64,000 nucleotides of DNA, taken from an uncultured Alphaproteobacteria bacterium. GTDB taxonomy: Bacteria; Pseudomonadota; Alphaproteobacteria; Methylaequorales; Methylaequoraceae. The notes under the pieces are model-generated. The model did no database searches and was not told the origin of the DNA. It saw nothing but the letters and a program-made list of their open reading frames with translations. The position numbers and the translations under genes are program-made. The stretch covers positions 68,477 to 132,476 of the forward strand of contig CACIYM010000001.1 in assembly GCA_902590895.1 (NCBI GenBank). The letters are read 5' to 3'. Shown here one piece after another: positions 11,275 to 28,980 of this stretch; positions within the stretch are counted from its first letter, which is position 1; the number at the start of each line of letters is the position of its first letter.

Positions 11275-12063
11275 TTACATACCAGGAAGTCTCATTAAAC
11301 TTGTACCTGCGGTATCTAATTCTTCAGTCATTTGGATAAGCTTAACATGCATTTCAAATTTTCTCATTTGATCTATCGTGTTAACCATTTCCTCTATTGC
11401 ATTAACGTTACTTTTTTCAAGAAATCCTGAAATTATTTTACCTTGCTGGTTAGGTTCGATTGGAATATTTTCAGCCTCACCATTTGCGTTAACAACTTCA
11501 GCAAATCTAATATGTCCATCAAGAGATTTTTTGAGAGTGTTGTCGCCGTTTGGAACAAAAGTAGCAATGTTTGCTACATTTACTGGTAAAGCACCTGGCT
11601 CAGCTGCAATTGGTTGAATAAGAATTTCTCCTTGCGAAGATATATTTATTTCTCTAAATGCAGGGATAACAATTGGTTGCATGCCTGCATCTAAAACAAG
11701 GTTTCCAGCACCATCAAGTAATTCTCCATTTTCATTTATATTTAGATCTCCACGTCTAGAAAAAGCTGGTATACCATTTTGTGGTTGAATTACAAAATAT
11801 CCATTACCGTCAATAGCTATATCTGTTGGATTATTTGTGTTTTCCATCGTACCTTGCTCGATACTAAATTTCCCAACCTCTCTACCGGCAACAATTCTAG
11901 GCTCAAGACCTTTATTTCTGTTTAAATATAATGCACTAAAGTCTGTTATAACATCCTGTCTGTAACCTGGAGTAACTAGATTAGATAAATTGTGAGCAGT
12001 AGCCATCTGATTTTCCATCAGGTTTTTCATACTATTTAGGGCTGTTTGTGCCATTCTATCCAT
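11275..12063 (-). CDS. flgF: flagellar basal-body rod protein FlgF
   Basis: 262 aa. MDRMAQTAL..TAHNLSNLVTPGYR at the N-terminus and LEKSNVN..RKFEMHVKLI at the C-terminus parallel E. coli FlgF. It is last in the flgBCDEF order. Confidence 0.8.
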   Translation of the reverse strand: MDRMAQTALNSMKNLMENQMATAHNLSNLVTPGYRQDVITDFSALYLNRNKGLEPRIVAGREVGKFSIEQGTMENTNNPTDIAIDGNGYFVIQPQNGIPAFSRRGDLNINENGELLDGAGNLVLDAGMQPIVIPAFREINISSQGEILIQPIAAEPGALPVNVANIATFVPNGDNTLKKSLDGHIRFAEVVNANGEAENIPIEPNQQGKIISGFLEKSNVNAIEEMVNTIDQMRKFEMHVKLIQMTEELDTAGTSLMRLPGM

Positions 12064-12096: not shown

Positions 12097-15000
12097 TTAC
12101 ATTCTGATATTTACAATAGCCTGCGTTGTAGCAGCAGTTGTTTCAATCGATTTAGCATTAGCTTGGAAGTTTCTTTGAGCTGTAATCAAATTAACCAGCT
12201 CTTCAGTAATGTCCACGTTAGATCTTTCCAAAGAACCTGATAATACGGTTCCAAAGCCTTCAGCACCTGCTTCACCAACTGTCGCTGTTCCAGAAACAGC
12301 TGTTTCAACATAAGTTGCGTTACCAATCTGCTTAAGACCATTTTGGTTATTAAAGTTTGCAAGAACAATTTTTCCAAGAGGATTATTCTGTCCATTCGTG
12401 TAGTTTGCTCTTACTGTGCCAGAGGCATCAACTTCAAGTCCATCCAATCTTCCTGATGTAAAACCATCCTGATTAACAGTCGATACGAAGAACGGTTGTG
12501 CTAACTGAGTGGATTTAGTGAAGTCAATATCTAGATCAATACTAAATCCAGCTTCTTGTTTTTCGTAATGAACACCTTGTTTAGGACTCACGATTGCACC
12601 AGATTTATCAAATGTTAATTCTCCCTCGTCGATATATAATGGGAAATAACCTTCAACAAGGTTTGCAGGAGGAGTGGTAACTTTATTGCCATCTGCATCT
12701 ACAAATAAATTTAAACCTTCTGAATTGGTTGCTTGTTTTAAATTGTAAATCTGTGGTACTGATCCAACACCTAAATCCACGTTATCCAATCCAAATTTTG
12801 ACGCTCCTCTAACTTTAATTGTTGATTCTCTTCCTGTTGTACCATTAATAAAAGTAAAATTGTTGGTTGCAGAATTATACTTGACAGTAATACCACCACC
12901 AACTGTACCGGCAGAATCTTCAATTTGGTTAATACGTTCTTGAAGAGCCTCTGCAAGTGTAGTTCCTACATAAAACCCCTGTGGTATTTCAATAACACCT
13001 GCTACTCCATTAACTGAAACGTTAAATATATTCTCATTTCCTTGATTAGAAAGTCTAAATACTTGTGTCAAATCCTCTGTTGCTGAAGCACCAATTGCTT
13101 GAGCAGGTTGAGCTGCAAGTCCTTTTGCATCTGTTGTAATAGCATTTGTTTTTGTTACACCTATTCCTAACAAGTTATTATCTCCTGAAAAGAAATCAGT
13201 TGAATCTGTAACTGAGCCATTAGTAGTTGAGAGAAGATATCTTCCTACTACTATACTAGAAGCAGTTTGAGCCTCTGTTACACCAATTGCACCATTAGCA
13301 GCAATCGTTTCACCGGTAGTTCCACTACTAAATTCAAAAGCTTTTAATTCACTATTATAACCAACTTTGACTCCAAATCTTTTATCGTTAAGTTGGATCT
13401 CTGCACCATCAGCAACAAAAGTATTTGCTGAAAACTTTTCTCCACCTCTAATTAATGTTTCAGTGGTATCATCAGCAGTCGGAATTCCTAAATTATTTTC
13501 TGAGGTTGCTGTTGATGAACCAAAAATTTTGAAACTATTAAAGTTACTATTTGTACCTGTACCAATGAGGTTCCTGTCCACTTCAAATTGAAGTCTCTGA
13601 TTTAAAACATCATAAGTCACTTCTATTGGTGGATCCTTTTCATCTACCCAATGAGTTGCTGGTTTAGTTTTATCTGTTGATGTACCATCTCCATTTAGAT
13701 ATAAATCTCTTGATGCTGTATTTGTATTTTCACCTAATCCAGTTAATTCATAGGTATCTAATGCTGTACCAGATGCGGTTTCTGTATCAGTGAGAGGGAA
13801 TACTTCAACTAAATCATCAATAATATTTTTTGCCGCTCCAGCTGCTGTAGTTTTTGTAACCATACTTGCATTTGTATAATCATGTTTAGTTGTTGAACCA
13901 ATTTCTCTTATTACAATCTTTGAGCTACTGAAGTTTACAGGCGCTCCTTGATAAACATTTTGCGCACCCTCAAAAAATGCCTCTACGGCAGTTGATTCTT
14001 CAGAATATATATTTGCTGAATCATTTGCATTAGCTACTGACAAGGTAAAGTCTGAATCAGGAAAACTCATTCCTGCAGTACTGGCTTCTATATAGTGATA
14101 TGTGGTACCTCCTGTAGTTTCAGAACCAATTGAAGCAATGGTAAACTCTCTGCCATTAACAAAATCTGAATTAGAATTAAATGTTGTATCAGAGTAAAAT
14201 TTTCCGACGAATCTAACTTTTTCATTTGCAGTAAGTCCAGGGTCACTCGAGCCAAAATAAAATCTCACAGTATTTTCTGATTGATCATAGGATACAGCAG
14301 TTGTACTGGCATTATCTCCCAAGGAATCCACCTCATCGTAAACATGAAGTTCAGGTGTTTTTCCGTAGTATGAATATGTGAGATGTCGGCCAGTAGTAGT
14401 AGGTCCACTGGCTGTAAGGGTAGCTGCGTCAGCTGCTGTTCTGTGGTTAAATGTAAAAGCTTGACTTTGAGTCAGTATAGTTGATATGGCTTTTCCAGAG
14501 GCTCTGTAGAATAAACTATCTCCAACACCTAAAGCAGTTGCACTAGCTACCGCATCATTAGCTGGGTTAACAGCATATTCATTCAGAGCGGCATTCAAAC
14601 GAGCTTGGGTATGCGCTAAAAATTGTTCTCTTGTAAAATCCGGTGATGCACCAGTCAAAACTATTCCCTCTAGATCAGAAACATATGAATCACTTAATAA
14701 ATCTACAGAAACTGGTGTAGTCAAACCTGTGGATGTTCCATCAGCGTTCAATTTCAGTAAATCTATAGTCAAAGTATCGTCTACGTTTTGGACAATTTGA
14801 ATTTTTTTATCATCTCCATATGCAGCATTTACTGCTCTTTGAATTTCAGCAGATAATTGAGTTGCATTATAAGAACCTGGTCTAATATCGATATTTACCG
14901 GTTGGTCACTATTGTCGACATTTATAGTCATGAAATTAGTACCCCAATAAATATTAGAAGATGTATCCCCGCTTTCTCTTGTTGAATTAAATTTCATAGG

Positions 15001-15969
15001 GTCGGTAACAATGGTTACAGTTTTATCACCTTCCTCACCAAAATCGAATGCGCTGGATTCACCTGTTACTTTTGCAGGGGTTGAATCTACAAGTGTCTGT
15101 AAATCGTCTAATTTATAAAGAGCGGAACCTTTTCCCTCCAAGAAGTAGTTATCATCAGGAACCTTTGTTGTTTGTTGACCAAATCTATCAATAAATATTG
15201 GTTGTTGAGTGTCTGTTACAGAACGAACTAGATCTGGATCAATGACTGTGTCATTAATCACTAAACGAGTTTCAAACTTATTTGTCGGATCAGCTGCAGA
15301 TGCTGCTTGAGTTCTAATGAAAAATATTGTTGCAATTGTAGGGTTACCTAAGTCATCAAAGATTGTAATGGATGTTGAGTTATTGTAGGTAGTTGGATCG
15401 TTAGGATCAAAAACATATCCATTTTCAAATTGAGGTTTATCAGTAATAATCTCACTTGTAGCGGAAACGTTTACACCCAACTCAATCGAAGTTGTTGCTT
15501 TTGGAGTTCCTGAAGTAACTGGGAGCTGAAGAGGTACAGCACTAACTAAATCTTTCGCTGTGACTGAACCATCTTCGTTCACTGGGAATGTAAGCAAAAA
15601 CTGACCAGATGAATCTGTAACATATCTATCATTATTCACATTGAATGAACCATTTCTTGTATAAACCGTTTGACCGGATGTAAGTGAAGGTTTTAAGGAG
15701 AAAAAACCTTGACCCGAAATTGCTATGTCTAGAACATTAAGAGAAGATGTAATGTTACCCTGAGTAAACTGCTGTTTTACACTTTTTAAAATTGTACCTG
15801 AACCAATTGATGAGGATGCATTCTGTAATGGTGAAGTTGCAAATATATCACCAAATTCAGCTCTTGATCTTTTAAAACCAGTTGTGTTAACGTTTGCAAT
15901 ATTATTCGACGTAGCGGATATATCCGACTGTGCTCCATTAAGACCTGTTAGTGCTGTGTAAAATGACAT
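12097..15969 (-). CDS. flgE: flagellar hook protein FlgE, giant 1290-aa form
   Basis: N-terminus MSFYTALTGLNGAQSDISATSNNIANVNTTGFKR. C-terminus LERSNVDITEELVNLITAQRNFQANAKSI. It follows flgD. The central ~850 aa are a T/S/N/G/D-rich insert. Confidence 0.85.
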   Translation of the reverse strand: MSFYTALTGLNGAQSDISATSNNIANVNTTGFKRSRAEFGDIFATSPLQNASSSIGSGTILKSVKQQFTQGNITSSLNVLDIAISGQGFFSLKPSLTSGQTVYTRNGSFNVNNDRYVTDSSGQFLLTFPVNEDGSVTAKDLVSAVPLQLPVTSGTPKATTSIELGVNVSATSEIITDKPQFENGYVFDPNDPTTYNNSTSITIFDDLGNPTIATIFFIRTQAASAADPTNKFETRLVINDTVIDPDLVRSVTDTQQPIFIDRFGQQTTKVPDDNYFLEGKGSALYKLDDLQTLVDSTPAKVTGESSAFDFGEEGDKTVTIVTDPMKFNSTRESGDTSSNIYWGTNFMTINVDNSDQPVNIDIRPGSYNATQLSAEIQRAVNAAYGDDKKIQIVQNVDDTLTIDLLKLNADGTSTGLTTPVSVDLLSDSYVSDLEGIVLTGASPDFTREQFLAHTQARLNAALNEYAVNPANDAVASATALGVGDSLFYRASGKAISTILTQSQAFTFNHRTAADAATLTASGPTTTGRHLTYSYYGKTPELHVYDEVDSLGDNASTTAVSYDQSENTVRFYFGSSDPGLTANEKVRFVGKFYSDTTFNSNSDFVNGREFTIASIGSETTGGTTYHYIEASTAGMSFPDSDFTLSVANANDSANIYSEESTAVEAFFEGAQNVYQGAPVNFSSSKIVIREIGSTTKHDYTNASMVTKTTAAGAAKNIIDDLVEVFPLTDTETASGTALDTYELTGLGENTNTASRDLYLNGDGTSTDKTKPATHWVDEKDPPIEVTYDVLNQRLQFEVDRNLIGTGTNSNFNSFKIFGSSTATSENNLGIPTADDTTETLIRGGEKFSANTFVADGAEIQLNDKRFGVKVGYNSELKAFEFSSGTTGETIAANGAIGVTEAQTASSIVVGRYLLSTTNGSVTDSTDFFSGDNNLLGIGVTKTNAITTDAKGLAAQPAQAIGASATEDLTQVFRLSNQGNENIFNVSVNGVAGVIEIPQGFYVGTTLAEALQERINQIEDSAGTVGGGITVKYNSATNNFTFINGTTGRESTIKVRGASKFGLDNVDLGVGSVPQIYNLKQATNSEGLNLFVDADGNKVTTPPANLVEGYFPLYIDEGELTFDKSGAIVSPKQGVHYEKQEAGFSIDLDIDFTKSTQLAQPFFVSTVNQDGFTSGRLDGLEVDASGTVRANYTNGQNNPLGKIVLANFNNQNGLKQIGNATYVETAVSGTATVGEAGAEGFGTVLSGSLERSNVDITEELVNLITAQRNFQANAKSIETTAATTQAIVNIRM

Positions 15970-15991: not shown

Positions 15992-16696
15992 TTAATCATT
16001 TGTTTTTAGTTTGATGGCGTCATTGGCTGAAATTTCACCATAATCTTTTGTTTCTAGGATTACATCCTCACTATTTTTAGGTGCTGAGGCTGCAATTACT
16101 TTGTTATAAACGGCTGTACTTATTCCGTCACTGGCTTCGCCGTTTCCAGCATATGCTTGAATAGTTAATCTTGTTTTACTTTTTTTAATTTCATCTGGTA
16201 TATCTATCCAGCTAAAACCAACTAAACCTTTTTCTTGTGATCCAAGAGAAAGTGAATGAACTATTTCACCTGAAGGACTAGTAAATGTTAAACCAACATC
16301 GTTTGAGTAAGATGGCAAATCAACGACTCCATGAATCTCTCCATTATCATCTGGACTTACCACCTGACCTGGAACTAATACCGAGTGTCCTAAGAATTGA
16401 GCTGCAGTAGCCACTCTATTAGGTTCAAGTTTAGATCCTAAATTTGTTAAATTGTTATTAATTTCAGTAATACCCGTTACTGTTGAAAACTGTGCCATTT
16501 GAGCAATAAAATCACCGTTGTCCATTGGAGCAAAGGGATCTTGATTTTGCAATTGTGTTGTCATAAGTTTGAGAAAATCCTCTTGTCCTAAAGAATTTTT
16601 ATTTGCTGGTCTTTTTGCTTCTTCTTGAGTTTTCACTCCAAGCTTATTAAGAATGTTATTTAAAGATTGTTCAGATGATTTTGATATTTCTGTCAT
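15992..16696 (-). CDS. flgD: flagellar hook capping/assembly protein FlgD
   Basis: 234 aa. LGQEDFLKLMTTQLQNQDPFAPMD motif. Synteny supports the call. Confidence 0.85.
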   Translation of the reverse strand: MTEISKSSEQSLNNILNKLGVKTQEEAKRPANKNSLGQEDFLKLMTTQLQNQDPFAPMDNGDFIAQMAQFSTVTGITEINNNLTNLGSKLEPNRVATAAQFLGHSVLVPGQVVSPDDNGEIHGVVDLPSYSNDVGLTFTSPSGEIVHSLSLGSQEKGLVGFSWIDIPDEIKKSKTRLTIQAYAGNGEASDGISTAVYNKVIAASAPKNSEDVILETKDYGEISANDAIKLKTND

Positions 16697-16702
16697 TTTA
16701 TT

Positions 16703-17116
16703 CTACTTTCCTAAATTAGCTGTTTTGAGCATAAGTGCTTTGATTGTTGAAATTACCTCTACATTATTTTGATACTGTCTAGAAGCTTCAAGCATATCTA
16801 CATATTCTTCTTCAATGTTTACTGGAGCTTTATAAATAAACCCATCTTTGTCAGCCATAGGGTGACCGGGTTTGTATTGTTTAATAGGCTCGATATCCAT
16901 CTTCTCAACTGTTACGGCATCAACTGTTGATATCCCTTTTTTTCTAATTAGATCAAAATATTTAGTTTCAAAAACTGGTTTGACTGGTTTATATGCATCT
17001 TGTGGGTTACCAGCAATATTATCGGCATTTGCTAAATTACTGGCAATAGCATTTAATCTTACAAGTTGAGCACCCATGGCTCTTTGCGCGATATGATAAA
17101 TATTTTTAATTTCCAT
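16703..17116 (-). CDS. flgC: flagellar basal-body rod protein FlgC
   Basis: 137 aa. NAIASNLANADN at the N-terminus and VNIEEEYVDMLEASRQYQNN at the C-terminus. Confidence 0.85.
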   Translation of the reverse strand: MEIKNIYHIAQRAMGAQLVRLNAIASNLANADNIAGNPQDAYKPVKPVFETKYFDLIRKKGISTVDAVTVEKMDIEPIKQYKPGHPMADKDGFIYKAPVNIEEEYVDMLEASRQYQNNVEVISTIKALMLKTANLGK

Positions 17117-17505
17117 TATTCACCTCTAATAGCACTCATTAGTCCTGTTAACTTTGAATTTATAAAGTTTAAGGTAGTTTGATATCTAACTGAATTTTCA
17201 GCAAATTCCATTTGCTCAACTGATAATTCCACAGTATTACCATCCATTGAAGGAGTTAAAGGGTCTCTATATTGAACCTTTCCAGGTAAATTTTTTGAAG
17301 CTAACGAAATATGTCCTTTATCGGACGTTTTTAAAGGTCCTACACTCAGTACTCTTGCTAATTCAACTTCAAAGTCTACGTCTCTAGCTTTGTAGTTTGG
17401 TGTTGCAGCATTAGCAATGTTAGAGGCTAGAATTTCATTTCTTTTATTTCTTATGCCTAATGCATTGCTGTATACTTCAAATTGTTGTTTAATACTATCA
17501 GTCAT
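17116..17505 (-). CDS. flgB: flagellar basal-body rod protein FlgB
   Basis: 129 aa. RNEILASNIANAATPNYKARDVDF motif. First gene of the operon. Confidence 0.85.
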   Translation of the reverse strand: MTDSIKQQFEVYSNALGIRNKRNEILASNIANAATPNYKARDVDFEVELARVLSVGPLKTSDKGHISLASKNLPGKVQYRDPLTPSMDGNTVELSVEQMEFAENSVRYQTTLNFINSKLTGLMSAIRGE

Positions 17506-21110: not shown

Positions 21111-22289
21111 CTAATTCATAAATCTAATTAATTTTCCGTTAATATCCTCTTTTTTATTTGCAGGATTTAGAATTTCTAAAACAGAGAAATCTCCACTTGA
21201 ATCTTTAACTGTAACAACGATCCAATCTCTCATTGAATGATTAGGGTTATTGTTAGATGCAAATCCAACCTTTCCTATTTGAACACCTTGATTAATACCA
21301 AGTGGAATTGTTAAAACATCTTTCACAAGTTCAGCTCTTGCCTCAAGTGGGTAACATTTTAATCTATCTTTGACTCTAAATTGCATTTTAGAAATACTAT
21401 TTTGAACGACTTCTTCAATTTTGTCATATGGTATTTTATAAAAGCCATCCACATGTTGATAGCCTGTTTCAATACCCAATAACACCGAAAAATTATAATT
21501 TAGGGTATCTATAATATTAAAATTAGTTCCCTCAAAAAGATTGATTGTTAGTGCAACATCAACTTTATTTAAAAATCTTGTCAACGTTCCTTTGCTGCGT
21601 TTCAGTTCAATTAGAGTGTGCATACCAAATTCACCTGATTTAAGAGAACCTGATTTTCCTTCAACTAACGCCTGATAATCCAAACTTATAGGTAACGCAG
21701 AAAATTTCTTTGGATTAAAATCAAAATTTGTTGAATCCTTTAATGAAATTTGATCAAAACTAGTTAAATTCTCAAATATTTTTTGAGATATTAACAGGGG
21801 TAAACTCTGTAATTGAGCAGGAAGTTTACTTGAAACCACAAAATTTGGTTTAAAATAACTTAAGTTAATATTACTTCTCGCTGAACAGTCTAGTAAACTA
21901 TTTATACTTACTAAAATAGCCTTAATTTTTACAGTGTAGTGAGTTTCGTCTTTGCTTTCCTCTAAAATTACAAAGTCCTTAATTGATGATGATGGTCTAA
22001 TCAATAAATTTTCATTTAATGAAGTATTGGTGTCAACCGTTGAATAGCCGTCTATTTTAGCACCAGCTTGCAGACTAGCCAAATACAAAGCATCGTCTAG
22101 AGCTCTTTTTTTTGCAATCATTTCATTTCCATCAACAATTACAGCTCTTCCTTCTGAAATAATAGCTTTGTGAGAAATTTCTTGAGCAACTAGCAATGTT
22201 GATGCAAAAAGAAAAAATAGCAATGTAGTTACAAAAACTATTAATTCTTTTATTACAGAATCAACTTTATTATAAGTAAACTTTTTCAA
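21111..22289 (-). CDS. flgT: FlgT-like flagellar H-ring/assembly protein
   Basis: 392 aa with an N-terminal signal/anchor. AKKRALDDALYLASLQAGAKIDGYS and the C-terminal beta-rich region resemble Vibrio FlgT. Adjacent to flgP. Confidence 0.55.
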   Translation of the reverse strand: MKKFTYNKVDSVIKELIVFVTTLLFFLFASTLLVAQEISHKAIISEGRAVIVDGNEMIAKKRALDDALYLASLQAGAKIDGYSTVDTNTSLNENLLIRPSSSIKDFVILEESKDETHYTVKIKAILVSINSLLDCSARSNINLSYFKPNFVVSSKLPAQLQSLPLLISQKIFENLTSFDQISLKDSTNFDFNPKKFSALPISLDYQALVEGKSGSLKSGEFGMHTLIELKRSKGTLTRFLNKVDVALTINLFEGTNFNIIDTLNYNFSVLLGIETGYQHVDGFYKIPYDKIEEVVQNSISKMQFRVKDRLKCYPLEARAELVKDVLTIPLGINQGVQIGKVGFASNNNPNHSMRDWIVVTVKDSSGDFSVLEILNPANKKEDINGKLIRFMN

Positions 22290-22320
22290 ACTTATTTCCT
22301 TTATACTTTATTAATAACTC

Positions 22321-22824
22321 TTAAATTGATTGTGCTTGTCTAAATAAATATGCGACCATATCCTGATCGATTTCTAATACTGTTTCATATGTATCAGAGC
22401 CAGTTGGATTAATTCTAACTGTTCGTGCGCCTCTTATTACGCCTGAAACGATGCCTCTGAAAGTATCATTTTGAACCATTAAATCTATAACTGTAGTATT
22501 ACTATCAACCTTTAAACCATGTATTTGCTCTGCTAATTCTCTCATCGCCGACATTCTTGCTGCCCTGATAGCCATTAAACGTCTTTGTTCGATGCTTTGA
22601 CCAGGTTGTGTTGATACAACTGCATAACCTGTTGCTGTTAAGGTTGGAAATGTTATCGATGCACCATCAAGTAATTCTCTAGTTTTATTTAATTGATTTG
22701 TTGGAGCAGAATATTCGTCATCGGTTTGAGCAAAGCTTGTTTGATTTAATCCTAGATTTCCCAACATGCCTGGGGCACAAGACTGTGTTATTAAAATTAA
22801 TATAGCTAAAAAAGTTTTTTTCAT
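22321..22824 (-). CDS. flgP: FlgP / LPP20-family flagellar outer-membrane lipoprotein
   Basis: 167 aa. Lipobox LITQSC. RRLMAIRAARMSAMRELAEQIHGLKVDS...GVIRGAR is the LPP20/FlgP pattern. Confidence 0.65.
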   Translation of the reverse strand: MKKTFLAILILITQSCAPGMLGNLGLNQTSFAQTDDEYSAPTNQLNKTRELLDGASITFPTLTATGYAVVSTQPGQSIEQRRLMAIRAARMSAMRELAEQIHGLKVDSNTTVIDLMVQNDTFRGIVSGVIRGARTVRINPTGSDTYETVLEIDQDMVAYLFRQAQSI

Positions 22825-27790: not shown

Positions 27791-28193
27791 CCCAAAAAAA
27801 GAAAACTGGAAAGAGATAAATAAAATTGTATTAATTGTTAATGCTGTTGACTTTGATTACTCTGAAAAACTTGCTATAAATCTTAACTGTAACTTTGAAA
27901 ATATTTCCAAAGGAAGATGTACAGTGAGAATAAACGAAAAAAAAAATAAGTGTACAAATTCATTATCAGTTCTATCAAATCAAGCACTAATGATGGTTAA
28001 TATTTTTTATGAATATTTAGAGATTGAGAAGTTGGTTAACTTTATAATTTTAAACAAAAATAATAAAAAAAAAATAAAGGGTTTTATAGAAATTTTTGAT
28101 AATCTAATGGTTAACGACTCAGGTTATTTGTATGTAAATAATGAAATGGAAATAAAAATTAAAAAAATTTCTTGGAATATACCTATTATCTAG
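27777..28193 (+). CDS. hypothetical protein coupled to fliA
   Basis: 138-aa ORF overlapping the fliA end by 14 nt. N/K/I-rich, with no motif recognised. Confidence 0.35.
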   Translation: MKLVDPKKENWKEINKIVLIVNAVDFDYSEKLAINLNCNFENISKGRCTVRINEKKNKCTNSLSVLSNQALMMVNIFYEYLEIEKLVNFIILNKNNKKKIKGFIEIFDNLMVNDSGYLYVNNEMEIKIKKISWNIPII

Positions 28194-28980
28194 CTGATAA
28201 CTTCTTAGTAACATCAATATCAGATTGCATCATTTTAGAACATCCATTAAATGCTTGTTGTGTTCTTAACATTAGTATAATTTCATCTGTGATATCTGTG
28301 TTAGATTTTTCTAAAAAACCGGCTTGAAGTTTTCCTAATGTTCCTTCCTTGGGAGCAGCAAATGTTGGAACTCCACTTTCTCCTGTCTCTTGAAATCTAG
28401 CACTACCGATATTTTGCAATCCAAATTCATTTACAAAGTCTGCAAGTGCAATTCTTCCTACAATATTTTTGGTATCTAATCCATATGTTGCTTCTATTGT
28501 ACCATCATTATCAACTTTAATTTCTGTTAGAATTGCTTCTCCATCATCGGTCGCAGATTTGAATGGTATATTAATTAATGCTTGTCCTTCGCCTAATAAA
28601 GGTAAACCATCTGTTGTAACTAGGTTTCCTTGTCTATCAAGTTGAAATGACCCATCTCTTGTGTAAGTTAATGCTTGATTTGCCAATTCTCTTCCGACAG
28701 GAGAACCTAATACAAAAAAACCTTCTCCCATAATTGCTAGGTCAAGACTACCATTTGTCTGTTGAAGGGAGCCTTGAGAGAAGTTTTGTCTTGGTTTAAT
28801 TGCTTTTACACCAATCCCTCTTGCAACTTCTTGAGATCTGTTATGATGGGAATGGTACATATCTTCAAATTGTGCCTCACTTTTTTTAAAACCATTAGTA
28901 CCAGCATTTGCAATGTTGTTAGATATTACTGCCAAATCCTTATTAGCTGCGTCTAAACCTGTTCTTAGTATGCTAAACAT
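28186..28980 (-). CDS. flgG: flagellar distal rod protein FlgG (or FlgG/FlgE-family paralog)
   Basis: 264 aa. NNIANAGTNGFKKSEAQFEDM, YTRDGSFQLDRQGNLVT and LEKSNTDITDEIILMLRTQQAF parallel E. coli FlgG. Confidence 0.65.
   Translation of the reverse strand: MFSILRTGLDAANKDLAVISNNIANAGTNGFKKSEAQFEDMYHSHHNRSQEVARGIGVKAIKPRQNFSQGSLQQTNGSLDLAIMGEGFFVLGSPVGRELANQALTYTRDGSFQLDRQGNLVTTDGLPLLGEGQALINIPFKSATDDGEAILTEIKVDNDGTIEATYGLDTKNIVGRIALADFVNEFGLQNIGSARFQETGESGVPTFAAPKEGTLGKLQAGFLEKSNTDITDEIILMLRTQQAFNGCSKMMQSDIDVTKKLSAR

What the first reader, a model, noticed from the sequence alone, without database searches (positions are those of the whole stretch)
12097..15969. 1290-aa hook protein: FlgE termini flanking an ~850-aa insert
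The N-terminal ~220 aa and C-terminal ~200 aa are standard FlgE D0/D1/D2 sequence. Everything between them is a Cys-free T/S/N/G/D/A-rich region. By comparison, Salmonella/E. coli FlgE is about 400 aa. The enlarged hooks of Helicobacter and Campylobacter are about 720 and 850-865 aa, where extra D3/D4 domains stiffen the hook of high-torque motors. This gene would encode one of the largest hook subunits I am aware of. At 3.9 kb it is a large investment for a streamlined genome. It co-occurs with FlgT and FlgP, which are markers of embellished motors.
Basis: partly seen in the sequence, partly recalled or inferred. Interest (0 to 1): 0.6.

Follow-up and report, generated by a model that had tools for sequence, protein, structure and literature searches.

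The report
Giant flagellar hook protein FlgE
This small-genome marine alphaproteobacterium builds its flagellar hook from a protein three times the usual size, because about 900 residues of extra folded domains sit inside the outermost standard domain; the same giant hook gene is common in abundant ocean bacteria, and I found no paper on it.

Summary
Window 12097-15969 (-) is one intact 1290-aa ORF in the flgB-C-D-E-F position. Its ends are Vibrio-type FlgE D0/D1/D2: residues 1-221 and 1145-1290 align with the 434/437-aa FlgE of PDB 9yee and 8z5u. About 900 Cys-free residues lie between them, inside D2.

It is not an artefact. All 21 related genomes of the same family in which the gene is intact carry a 1262-1551-aa FlgE. 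Seventy-one further species-level genomes do too (1227-1547 aa), labelled SAR116, PS1, Planktomarina, Amylibacter and Rhodospirillaceae. The insert is under strong purifying selection (dN/dS 0.02-0.09).

It is folded. AlphaFold2 gives pLDDT mostly 75-95 across the insert. The hypervariable middle part (469-780) folds alone with pLDDT 89.9 and pTM 0.88.

The insert has no detectable sequence or fold relative among solved structures, including Campylobacter FlgE D3/D4.

My best reading is that this is the only hook subunit and carries a multi-domain outer arm. Conserved inner modules surround a fast-evolving tip, and the arm would thicken the hook to roughly 35-40 nm. A mechanical role is inferred, not shown.

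The genome also encodes a 1792-aa FlgK, a flagellin of only about 287 aa, and a conserved D2-less FlgE/G paralog.

Verdict: a new variant of a known kind. Interest is moderate to high.

The parts
12097..15969 (-). flgE, 1290-aa giant hook protein (stop codon included)
15307..15969 (-). Residues 1-221: standard FlgE N-terminal D0, Dc, D1 and first strands of D2
   Evidence: Aligns with Vibrio-type FlgE chain 3-212 and with canonical FlgE 73-203. Identity to relatives is about 0.8.
14566..15279 (-). Insert part I1, residues 231-468: conserved inner modules, including a strand-strand-helix-strand-strand module at about 344-410
   Evidence: Identity to 48 relatives is about 0.64-0.72. dN/dS is 0.02. 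AF2 pLDDT is mostly 75-90. Repeat 359-384 ~ 992-1017 has hhalign prob 87 %.
13630..14565 (-). Insert part I2, residues 469-780: hypervariable, self-contained folded tip module, with an indel hot spot at about residues 700-780
   Evidence: Identity is 0.18-0.54. dN/dS is 0.09. AF2 on this part alone gives pLDDT 89.9 and pTM 0.88. Foldseek finds no PDB match; the best has E 0.078.
12610..13629 (-). Insert part I3, residues 781-1120: conserved inner modules. Residues about 926-1120 are the part most widely shared with distant giant FlgE proteins.
   Evidence: Identity is about 0.52-0.73. dN/dS is 0.03. Repeats are 865-894 ~ 1025-1056 (95 %) and 781-818 ~ 1026-1056 (28 %).
12100..12609 (-). Residues 1121-1290: last D2 strands, D1 and the C-terminal D0 helix
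   Evidence: Aligns with Vibrio-type FlgE chain 290-434. Flg_bbr_C lies at 1244-1287.
15992..16696 (-). flgD (hook cap/assembly protein)
16703..17505 (-). flgC and flgB (proximal rod)
11275..12063 (-). flgF (rod), directly downstream of flgE
21111..22824 (-). flgT (21111-22289) and flgP/LPP20 (22321-22824), H-ring and basal-disk markers
28186..28980 (-). 264-aa FlgE/FlgG-family paralog without D2, conserved in the whole family. It may belong to the same rod-hook assembly.

Best explanation
The gene encodes the cell's only flagellar hook subunit. The conserved ends (residues 1-221 and about 1145-1290) form the usual D0/D1/D2 tube of a Vibrio / Rhodobacter-sphaeroides-Fla1-type polar flagellum. 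A folded, mostly beta, multi-domain arm of about 900 residues grows out of the distal side of D2. The arm has two conserved inner parts (231-468 and 781-1120) and a compact hypervariable tip (469-780) lying between them in the sequence. The inner parts contain recurrences of a roughly 80-residue strand-strand-helix-strand-strand unit. This is what nested domain insertion would produce: the chain runs outward, forms the tip, and returns. About 120-130 subunits polymerise (inferred from a normal-sized 425-aa FliK frame). The arms would then add further concentric layers and raise the hook diameter from about 18 nm to roughly 35-40 nm (inferred by scaling from the 28-nm Campylobacter hook). The conserved inner layers most likely make extra subunit-subunit contacts that set hook stiffness and curvature. 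The exposed tip is free to vary. Shown here: identity as FlgE, the site of the insert, its folded state, conservation and purifying selection, and wide distribution. Inferred: nested topology, hook thickness and the mechanical role.
For: Identity and context: four FlgE Pfam domains and the FlgEFG subfamily model score over their cut-offs. The gene lies in flgBCD-E-F order. It is the only FlgE_D2-bearing frame in near-complete relatives (G003 98 %, G009 99 %). Not an artefact: frames of 1262-1551 aa occur in the 21 same-family genomes where the gene is intact. There are 899 homologues of the insert on independent contigs. ORFs of 1227-1547 aa occur in 71 species-level SAGs, MAGs and isolates. 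Function retained: dN/dS against the closest relative is 0.00 for the N-terminal and C-terminal core, 0.02 for I1, 0.09 for I2 and 0.03 for I3. Folded: AF2 pLDDT is mostly 75-95 over the insert with pTM 0.65, and the tip alone gives pLDDT 89.9 and pTM 0.88. Layered conservation is shown. Internal repeats and a split module flanking the tip are shown. Precedent: Campylobacter D3/D4 are inserted in D2, widen the hook to 280 A, add contacts and have variable exposed surfaces (PMC5097172; PMC5069557). Companion enlargement: FlgK is 1792 aa in the same genome, like the 1363-aa FlgK and bulky HAP region of R. sphaeroides Fla1 (PMC7277832).
Against: No coordinates of the models were available, so contacts between sequence-distant halves (the nested topology) and the closeness of the tip's two ends were not verified. 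No oligomer was modelled, so inter-subunit contacts of the arm are conjecture. A very bulky outer layer could hinder the bending a universal joint needs. The arms may therefore be loosely packed and serve another purpose. The open ocean is not a viscous habitat like that of Campylobacter, so the high-load rationale does not transfer directly. The NCBIfam FlgE equivalog cut-offs are narrowly missed (382.7 against 400 bits), as expected for a split match.
Confidence: 0.6

Rival explanations
1. The arm is a surface-display platform rather than a mechanical element. The hypervariable tip would act in adhesion, binding of particles or polymers, an enzymatic activity, or as a variable target or decoy for flagellotropic phages and grazers. 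The conserved inner modules would only hold the tip out.
For: The tip evolves 3-5 times faster in protein sequence than the rest. It has an indel hot spot where other lineages carry extra, unrelated modules. It is a confident compact fold without a known relative. Weak fold hits of the whole model point to phage sheath-type outer domains.
Against: dN/dS of the tip is still only 0.09, so there is no region-wide positive selection. No Pfam or PDB match suggests a lectin or an enzyme. A hook offers only about 120 copies near the cell pole, which makes it a poor display site compared with the filament, and the flagellin here is minimal (about 287 aa).
Confidence: 0.25
2. The real hook tube is made by another protein, the 264-aa D2-less FlgE/G paralog at 28186-28980. 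The giant FlgE would be a minor or accessory component, comparable to Campylobacter, which has two hook genes of which only one builds the hook.
For: A conserved extra FlgE/FlgG-family gene exists in all 15 other family genomes searched. It scores better against FlgE models than against FlgG models. Campylobacter has two hook genes (PMC5069557).
Against: The paralog lacks D2, which PMC5069557 lists with D0 and D1 as part of the basic functional hook. It has rod-protein length and is 35 % identical to true FlgG. The giant gene sits in the canonical flgD-flgE-flgF slot. Its core is 94-100 % conserved within the family, with core dN/dS about 0.
Confidence: 0.05
3. The long ORF is an assembly or gene-fusion artefact, or the middle is a disordered, low-complexity spacer.
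For: The genome is a 43-contig, 71 % complete assembly. Another contig end does look chimeric. Read coverage could not be examined.
Against: The same architecture and length occur in hundreds of independent contigs, single-cell genomes and isolates. The frame is uninterrupted with strong purifying selection throughout. AF2 confidence is high and the model has regular secondary structure. BLAST self-comparison finds no tandem low-complexity repeats.
Confidence: 0.02

Closest known systems
Campylobacter jejuni FlgE (865 aa; PDB 5jxl, 5az4) and Helicobacter pylori FlgE (PDB 5npy) with extra domains D3 and D4
   Same: Both are hook subunits in which extra folded domains are inserted in the middle of D2. 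These domains form additional concentric layers (a 280 A hook against 180 A). Their exposed surfaces are variable and they add inter-subunit contacts (PMC5097172, PMC5069557).
   Different: The insert here is more than twice as long (about 890 aa against about 386 aa). It is not detectably related in sequence or fold. It occurs in a gamma-type (FlgT/FlgP/FlhF/FlhG) system of free-living oligotrophic marine alphaproteobacteria, not in an epsilonproteobacterial motor of a viscous habitat.
Vibrio polar-flagellum FlgE (434/437 aa; PDB 9yee, 8z5u/8z5y)
   Same: This is the closest solved relative of the conserved core (E 3.5e-69). Both belong to the same type of flagellar system with an H-ring protein FlgT and with FlgP.
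   Different: The Vibrio protein has a plain D2 with about 80 residues where this protein has about 925.
Rhodobacter (Cereibacter) sphaeroides Fla1 flagellum: FlgE1 of 423 aa, FlgK1 of 1363 aa with an 860-residue central region and a bulky HAP region (PMC7277832)
   Same: It is a gamma-derived flagellar system in an alphaproteobacterium, with FlgT, FlgP, a FlgJ lacking the muramidase part and a giant FlgK. Deletions in the FlgK central region impair swimming under load, which shows that such inserts can be mechanically relevant.
   Different: In R. sphaeroides only FlgK is enlarged and the hook protein is of normal size. Here both FlgE (1290 aa) and FlgK (1792 aa) are enlarged, and their inserts share no significant similarity.
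Giant flagellins and flagellin outer domains (D2/D3 and beyond) of marine gammaproteobacteria (from my own knowledge, not checked here)
   Same: Both follow the same building principle: conserved helical ends that polymerise, and a hypervariable, nested, surface-exposed middle.
   Different: A different protein and position in the flagellum are involved. In this genome the flagellin is minimal (about 287-aa frame), while the hook and junction are enlarged.

Membership tests
FlgE (flagellar hook protein) | N-terminal rod/hook motif (PF00460) and C-terminal FlgEFG domain (PF06429) | tested here: met
   PF00460 at 3-33 scores 35.5 bits against a cut-off of 20.7. PF06429 at 1244-1287 scores 54.7 bits against a cut-off of 23.
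FlgE (flagellar hook protein) | D1 domain and FlgE-specific D2 domain (PF22692, PF07559) | tested here: met
   PF22692 scores 42 bits (cut-off 27). PF07559 scores 61.8 bits (cut-off 22.7) in two stretches split by the insert. Foldseek of the model hits FlgE D1/D2 structures 8z5y_D, 3a69 and 9wx3.
FlgE (flagellar hook protein) | Score above NCBIfam FlgE equivalog cut-off | tested here: inconclusive
   NF004238 scores 382.7 bits against a cut-off of 400 and NF004240 scores 373 against 472, both as split matches. The subfamily model TIGR03506 scores 279 bits against 70.25. The shortfall is what a 900-aa interruption would cause.
FlgE (flagellar hook protein) | Gene position between flgD and flgF/flgG, and the only D2-bearing hook gene in the genome | tested here: met
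   The gene order is flgB-flgC-flgD-flgE-flgF. In near-complete relatives both PF07559 matches fall in the single giant frame.
FlgE (flagellar hook protein) | Polymerises into the hook between rod and FlgK | not testable with these tools
   This needs hook purification with mass spectrometry, or cryo-ET.
Epsilonproteobacterial enlarged FlgE (D3/D4 type) | Extra domains inserted within D2 | tested here: met
   The borders of the conserved core are at 220/221 and 1145/1146 relative to Vibrio and canonical FlgE.
Epsilonproteobacterial enlarged FlgE (D3/D4 type) | Insert homologous to Campylobacter/Helicobacter D3 and D4 | tested here: not met
   A profile of 49 inserts against all PDB sequences gives no hit at E<=10. 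Foldseek gives 5az4_A prob 0.04 and 5npy prob 0.15. TIGR02489 flgE_epsilon scores 140 bits against a cut-off of 412.85, on the termini only.
Flagellin/hook 'IN' motif modules (PF07196) | Significant match to PF07196 in the insert | tested here: not met
   No PF07196 hit was found in this FlgE at E<=1, nor in any of 49 inserts at E<=0.01. The strand-strand-helix-strand-strand units only resemble it by eye. FlgK of the same genome has a weak hit (E 0.0094, below the cut-off).
Vibrio / R. sphaeroides Fla1-type (gamma-type) polar flagellar system | FlgT, FlgP, FlhF, FlhG, FliA and FlgM encoded with the flagellar genes | tested here: met
   FlgT_N, LPP20, FHIPEP, FlhF-like GTPase, ParA/MinD-type FlhG and FliA are found. 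FlgM and FlgA are found.

The most novel reading that the evidence does not exclude
Abundant marine alphaproteobacteria (this family, SAR116, PS1, Planktomarina and others) may swim with a structurally undescribed armoured proximal flagellum. The hook would be about twice the usual width, built from four or more concentric layers. A matching giant FlgK junction would cap it and a thin minimal filament would follow. The hook would sit on an extended rod made with a lineage-specific D2-less FlgE/G paralog that lifts the bulky arms clear of the outer membrane and basal disk. The tip module would be a fold class not yet represented among solved structures.
Probability: 0.25. Interest if true: 0.8.

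Novelty: new variant of a known kind. Interest (0 to 1): 0.6.

Why it matters
The hook is the universal joint of the flagellum, and its mechanics set how polar flagellates turn, for example by hook buckling in flick turns. Hook proteins larger than the roughly 865-aa Campylobacter one are not discussed in the literature I could search. [quoted passage not shown] In this genome flgE (3.9 kb) and flgK (5.4 kb) together take about 0.6 % of the coding capacity. That so much is retained under strong purifying selection argues for a real function. It offers structural biologists a new, naturally occurring extreme for testing how outer domains tune hook stiffness, curvature and assembly. It also raises the question of how a 137-kDa substrate is exported through the type III channel. 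Cultured carriers exist, so the question can be tested directly.

Tried and rejected
1. A BLASTP self-comparison for internal repeats found nothing. Windowed profile-profile comparison found only short recurrences of about 30 residues, so this is not a tandem-repeat array.

2. Homology of the insert to known families gave nothing credible. Pfam on the protein and on 49 inserts gave only a sub-threshold RM6_Med14 match. A PDB sequence profile search gave nothing.

3. Fold searches also gave no convincing match for the insert. The whole model against PDB hit only FlgE D1/D2. The tip model against PDB hit nothing. The whole model against BFVD gave one phage 'sheath tube' hit (E 4e-5, TM 0.16), too weak to build on.

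4. Shared modules between the FlgE and FlgK inserts were not found. BLASTP showed only motif-level similarity (E 0.015).

5. The extra segments of the 1330-1547-aa variants are not duplications of the protein's own parts.

7. Literature searches for a described giant FlgE found none, and a SAR116 ecophysiology paper does not mention flagella.

8. The nested topology could not be verified from coordinates, because the tools do not expose model coordinates.
Full report
**Observation**

Window 12097-15969 (minus strand) is one uninterrupted ORF of 1290 aa with an ATG start.
- It contains no cysteine.
- The middle part is rich in T/A/G/S/D/N. It also carries about 28 % V/L/I/F/Y and has nearly the same composition as the conserved ends, so it is not a low-complexity spacer.
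- Pfam finds the four FlgE signatures: Flg_bb_rod at 3-33, the D1 domain at 83-127, a split FlgE_D2, and Flg_bbr_C at 1244-1287.
- NCBIfam puts FlgE equivalogs first. Their scores fall just under the cut-offs (382.7 against 400 bits), as expected for a match split by 900 residues. The FlgEFG subfamily model is far above its cut-off.
- The closest solved proteins are the 434/437-aa FlgE of polar Vibrio-type flagella (PDB 9yee, 8z5u). Residues 4-221 align with chain 3-212, and residues 1145-1289 align with chain 290-434.
- A profile-profile comparison with normal-sized alphaproteobacterial FlgE gives the same borders, 71-220 and 1146-1254.

About 925 residues therefore stand where an ordinary D2 has 60-80. 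The insert lies in the middle of D2, the topological region where Campylobacter FlgE carries D3/D4 (PMC5069557).

**Context**

The gene sits in the order flgB-flgC-flgD-flgE-flgF. Further along the window lie flgM, flgA, flgT, flgP (LPP20), flhA, flhF, flhG and fliA. This is a gamma-type polar flagellar system like Vibrio or the Fla1 system of Rhodobacter sphaeroides (PMC7277832).

The assembly holds 1.07 Mb in 43 contigs and is about 71 % complete.
- On another contig lie flgG-flgH-flgI, a short flgJ (102 aa) and a 1792-aa FlgK.
- The flagellin frames are only about 287-297 aa.
- The FliK frame is 425 aa. FliK acts as the hook-length ruler, so this suggests a hook of ordinary length. That is an inference.

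**Not an artefact**
- In 24 further genomes of the same family, every FlgE frame that is intact is 1262-1551 aa. Other families of the class have 412-886 aa.
- In the near-complete relatives both FlgE_D2 matches fall within that single frame, so there is no second hook gene.
- The insert alone finds 899 homologues on independent contigs from several data sources.
- A scan of one genome per species returned 80 loci. Seventy-one of them hold ORFs of 1227-1547 aa. Their labels include SAR116/Puniceispirillum, PS1 (isolate IMCC14465), Parvibaculales, Planktomarina, Amylibacter, Rhodobacteraceae isolate IMCC1909 and Rhodospirillaceae. That scan used the motifs MSFYTALT and ATSNNIAN, so it samples only this FlgE lineage.
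- An exhaustive search with the insert found 420 cluster representatives. Those I checked are FlgE of up to 1650 aa.
- On a tree of the conserved core, the giant proteins form one group. The window's family is a well-supported clade within it.

**Constraint**

Against 48 relatives the insert falls into three parts.

| Part | Residues | Identity to relatives | dN/dS vs closest relative |
|---|---|---|---|
| Core | 1-230 and 1121-1290 | about 0.8 | 0.00 |
| I1 | 231-468 | about 0.64-0.72 | 0.02 |
| I2 | 469-780 | 0.18-0.54 | 0.09 |
| I3 | 781-1120 | about 0.52-0.73 | 0.03 |

- I1 and I3 are nearly as conserved as the core. I2 is hypervariable.
- I2 has an indel hot spot at about residues 700-780. 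There the 1330-1547-aa variants carry extra modules that are not duplications of existing parts.
- The dN/dS values come from the closest relative, where synonymous sites are not saturated.
- The whole insert is under purifying selection. The tip evolves several times faster, but there is no region-wide sign of positive selection.

**Fold**

AlphaFold2 on residues 71-1255 with a 49-sequence alignment gave mean pLDDT 75 and pTM 0.65.
- The low-confidence regions are the D1 segments, which lack their polymer context.
- The insert scores mostly 75-95 and is largely beta with a few helices.
- The hypervariable part alone (469-780) gave pLDDT 89.9 and pTM 0.88. It is therefore a self-contained compact unit.

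Searches for relatives of the insert found none that are convincing.
- Foldseek of the large model against PDB returned only FlgE D1/D2 structures. Campylobacter 5az4 had prob 0.04 and Helicobacter 5npy had prob 0.15.
- The tip model had no match better than E 0.078.
- A sequence profile of 49 inserts found nothing in PDB at E<=10.
- Pfam found nothing credible in any of the 49 inserts.
- Against viral models, one phage sheath-type protein matched weakly.

**Architecture**

Windowed profile comparisons found short recurrences.

| Segment pair | hhalign probability |
|---|---|
| 865-894 ~ 1025-1056 | 95 % |
| 359-384 ~ 992-1017 | 87 % |
| 246-272 ~ 1076-1102 | 84 % |
| 781-818 ~ 1026-1056 | 28 % |

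- Read against the predicted secondary structure, these define a strand-strand-helix-strand-strand unit of about 80 residues.
- The unit is complete at about 344-410 and at about 978-1056.
- A third copy appears to be split. Its strand-plus-helix half lies at 415-468 and its two-strand half at 781-820, exactly flanking the hypervariable tip.

Nested insertion would give this pattern, and it is how flagellin and Campylobacter FlgE outer domains are built. Earlier notes of this scan on relatives reached the same 'Russian-doll' reading.

**Mechanism proposed**

The conserved ends build the standard 11-protofilament tube. The arm projects from D2 and adds further layers.
- In Campylobacter a 386-aa insert widens the hook from 180 to 280 A, adds contacts between protofilaments and is thought to stiffen the hook. 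Its exposed parts are variable (PMC5097172).
- Scaling the added cross-section by residue number gives roughly 37 nm for this protein. This is an inference that assumes equal packing.
- The strong conservation of I1 and I3 fits surfaces that contact neighbouring subunits.
- The variability of I2 fits a solvent-exposed tip.
- In R. sphaeroides, deletions in the large central region of FlgK abolish swimming although the flagella look normal (PMC7277832). Such inserts can therefore bear load.

Whether the arm stiffens, straightens or otherwise tunes the joint is untested. It may instead mainly present the tip for some surface function.

**Comparison and novelty**

It works like the enlarged epsilonproteobacterial hooks, but it is not a member of that group, because the insert is unrelated.
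- It is more than twice as large.
- It occurs in a different flagellar type and habitat.
- It comes with a giant FlgK and a minimal flagellin.

The literature I could search calls the 865-aa Campylobacter protein one of the longest. I found no paper on FlgE above 1200 aa. I rate it a new variant of a known kind, widespread in abundant marine bacteria and directly testable in existing isolates.

**Side observation**

A 264-aa FlgE/FlgG-family protein without D2 lies at 28186-28980.
- It scores better against FlgE models than against FlgG models.
- It is 34-37 % identical to the giant FlgE core and 35 % identical to the true FlgG.
- It is conserved at 65-98 % identity in all 15 other family genomes searched.

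It is most likely an extra rod-type component. It may be relevant to how a very bulky hook is mounted.

Noticed in passing
window 28186-28980 (-): A 264-aa FlgE/FlgG-family paralog lacks D2. Its best NCBIfam hits are FlgE models (211 bits), and FlgG scores 180 bits, below the cut-off. It is 34-37 % identical to the giant FlgE core and 35 % identical to the true FlgG. It is conserved at 65-98 % in all 15 other family genomes searched, and it is absent at E<=1e-30 from 9 of 10 genomes of other families searched.
   Followed up: partly
G000 contig C22 = L021:1855-7233 (-): The hook-filament junction protein FlgK is giant, at 1792 aa against about 550-650 usually and 1363 in R. sphaeroides Fla1. 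It has FlgK_D1, a weak Flagellin_IN hit and normal termini. Its insert shows no significant similarity to the FlgE insert. It is preceded by a 102-aa FlgJ (rod-binding part only) and followed by a 307-aa ORF without any family hit, possibly a divergent FlgL.
   Followed up: partly
L021:2-883 (-), end of contig C22: One open frame joins a Flagellin_N region (residues 13-100) to an ABC-transporter ATPase domain (residues 99-243). This looks like a chimeric contig end rather than a real gene.
   Followed up: no
G000:C8:4451-4711 and G000:C22:584-847: The flagellin-type frames are only about 287-297 aa, so they have essentially no outer domains. This contrasts with the giant hook and junction proteins.
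   Followed up: no
P0137 (from; not in the window): A 2492-aa protein combines 28 ALTTAQ repeats, a FlgE_D2 domain, a relative of the I3 part of the insert and a FlgD Ig-like domain. It is either an odd fusion or a gene-calling artefact.
   Followed up: no
L068-L071, L085-L089, L094-L098, L075, L082-L084: Longer FlgE variants (1330-1547 aa) carry additional modules exactly at the indel hot spot of the tip (window residues about 700-780). Some of these modules are shared between lineages (L068 and L089 are 43 % identical). None is a duplicate of the rest of the protein.
   Followed up: partly
window 12460-12753 and 14974-15423: The two Pfam FlgE_D2 matches overlap in profile coordinates. Residues 183-332 match profile positions 10-127, and residues 1073-1170 match positions 39-142. 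Residues 246-272 also resemble 1076-1102. Part of D2 may therefore be duplicated within the arm.
   Followed up: no
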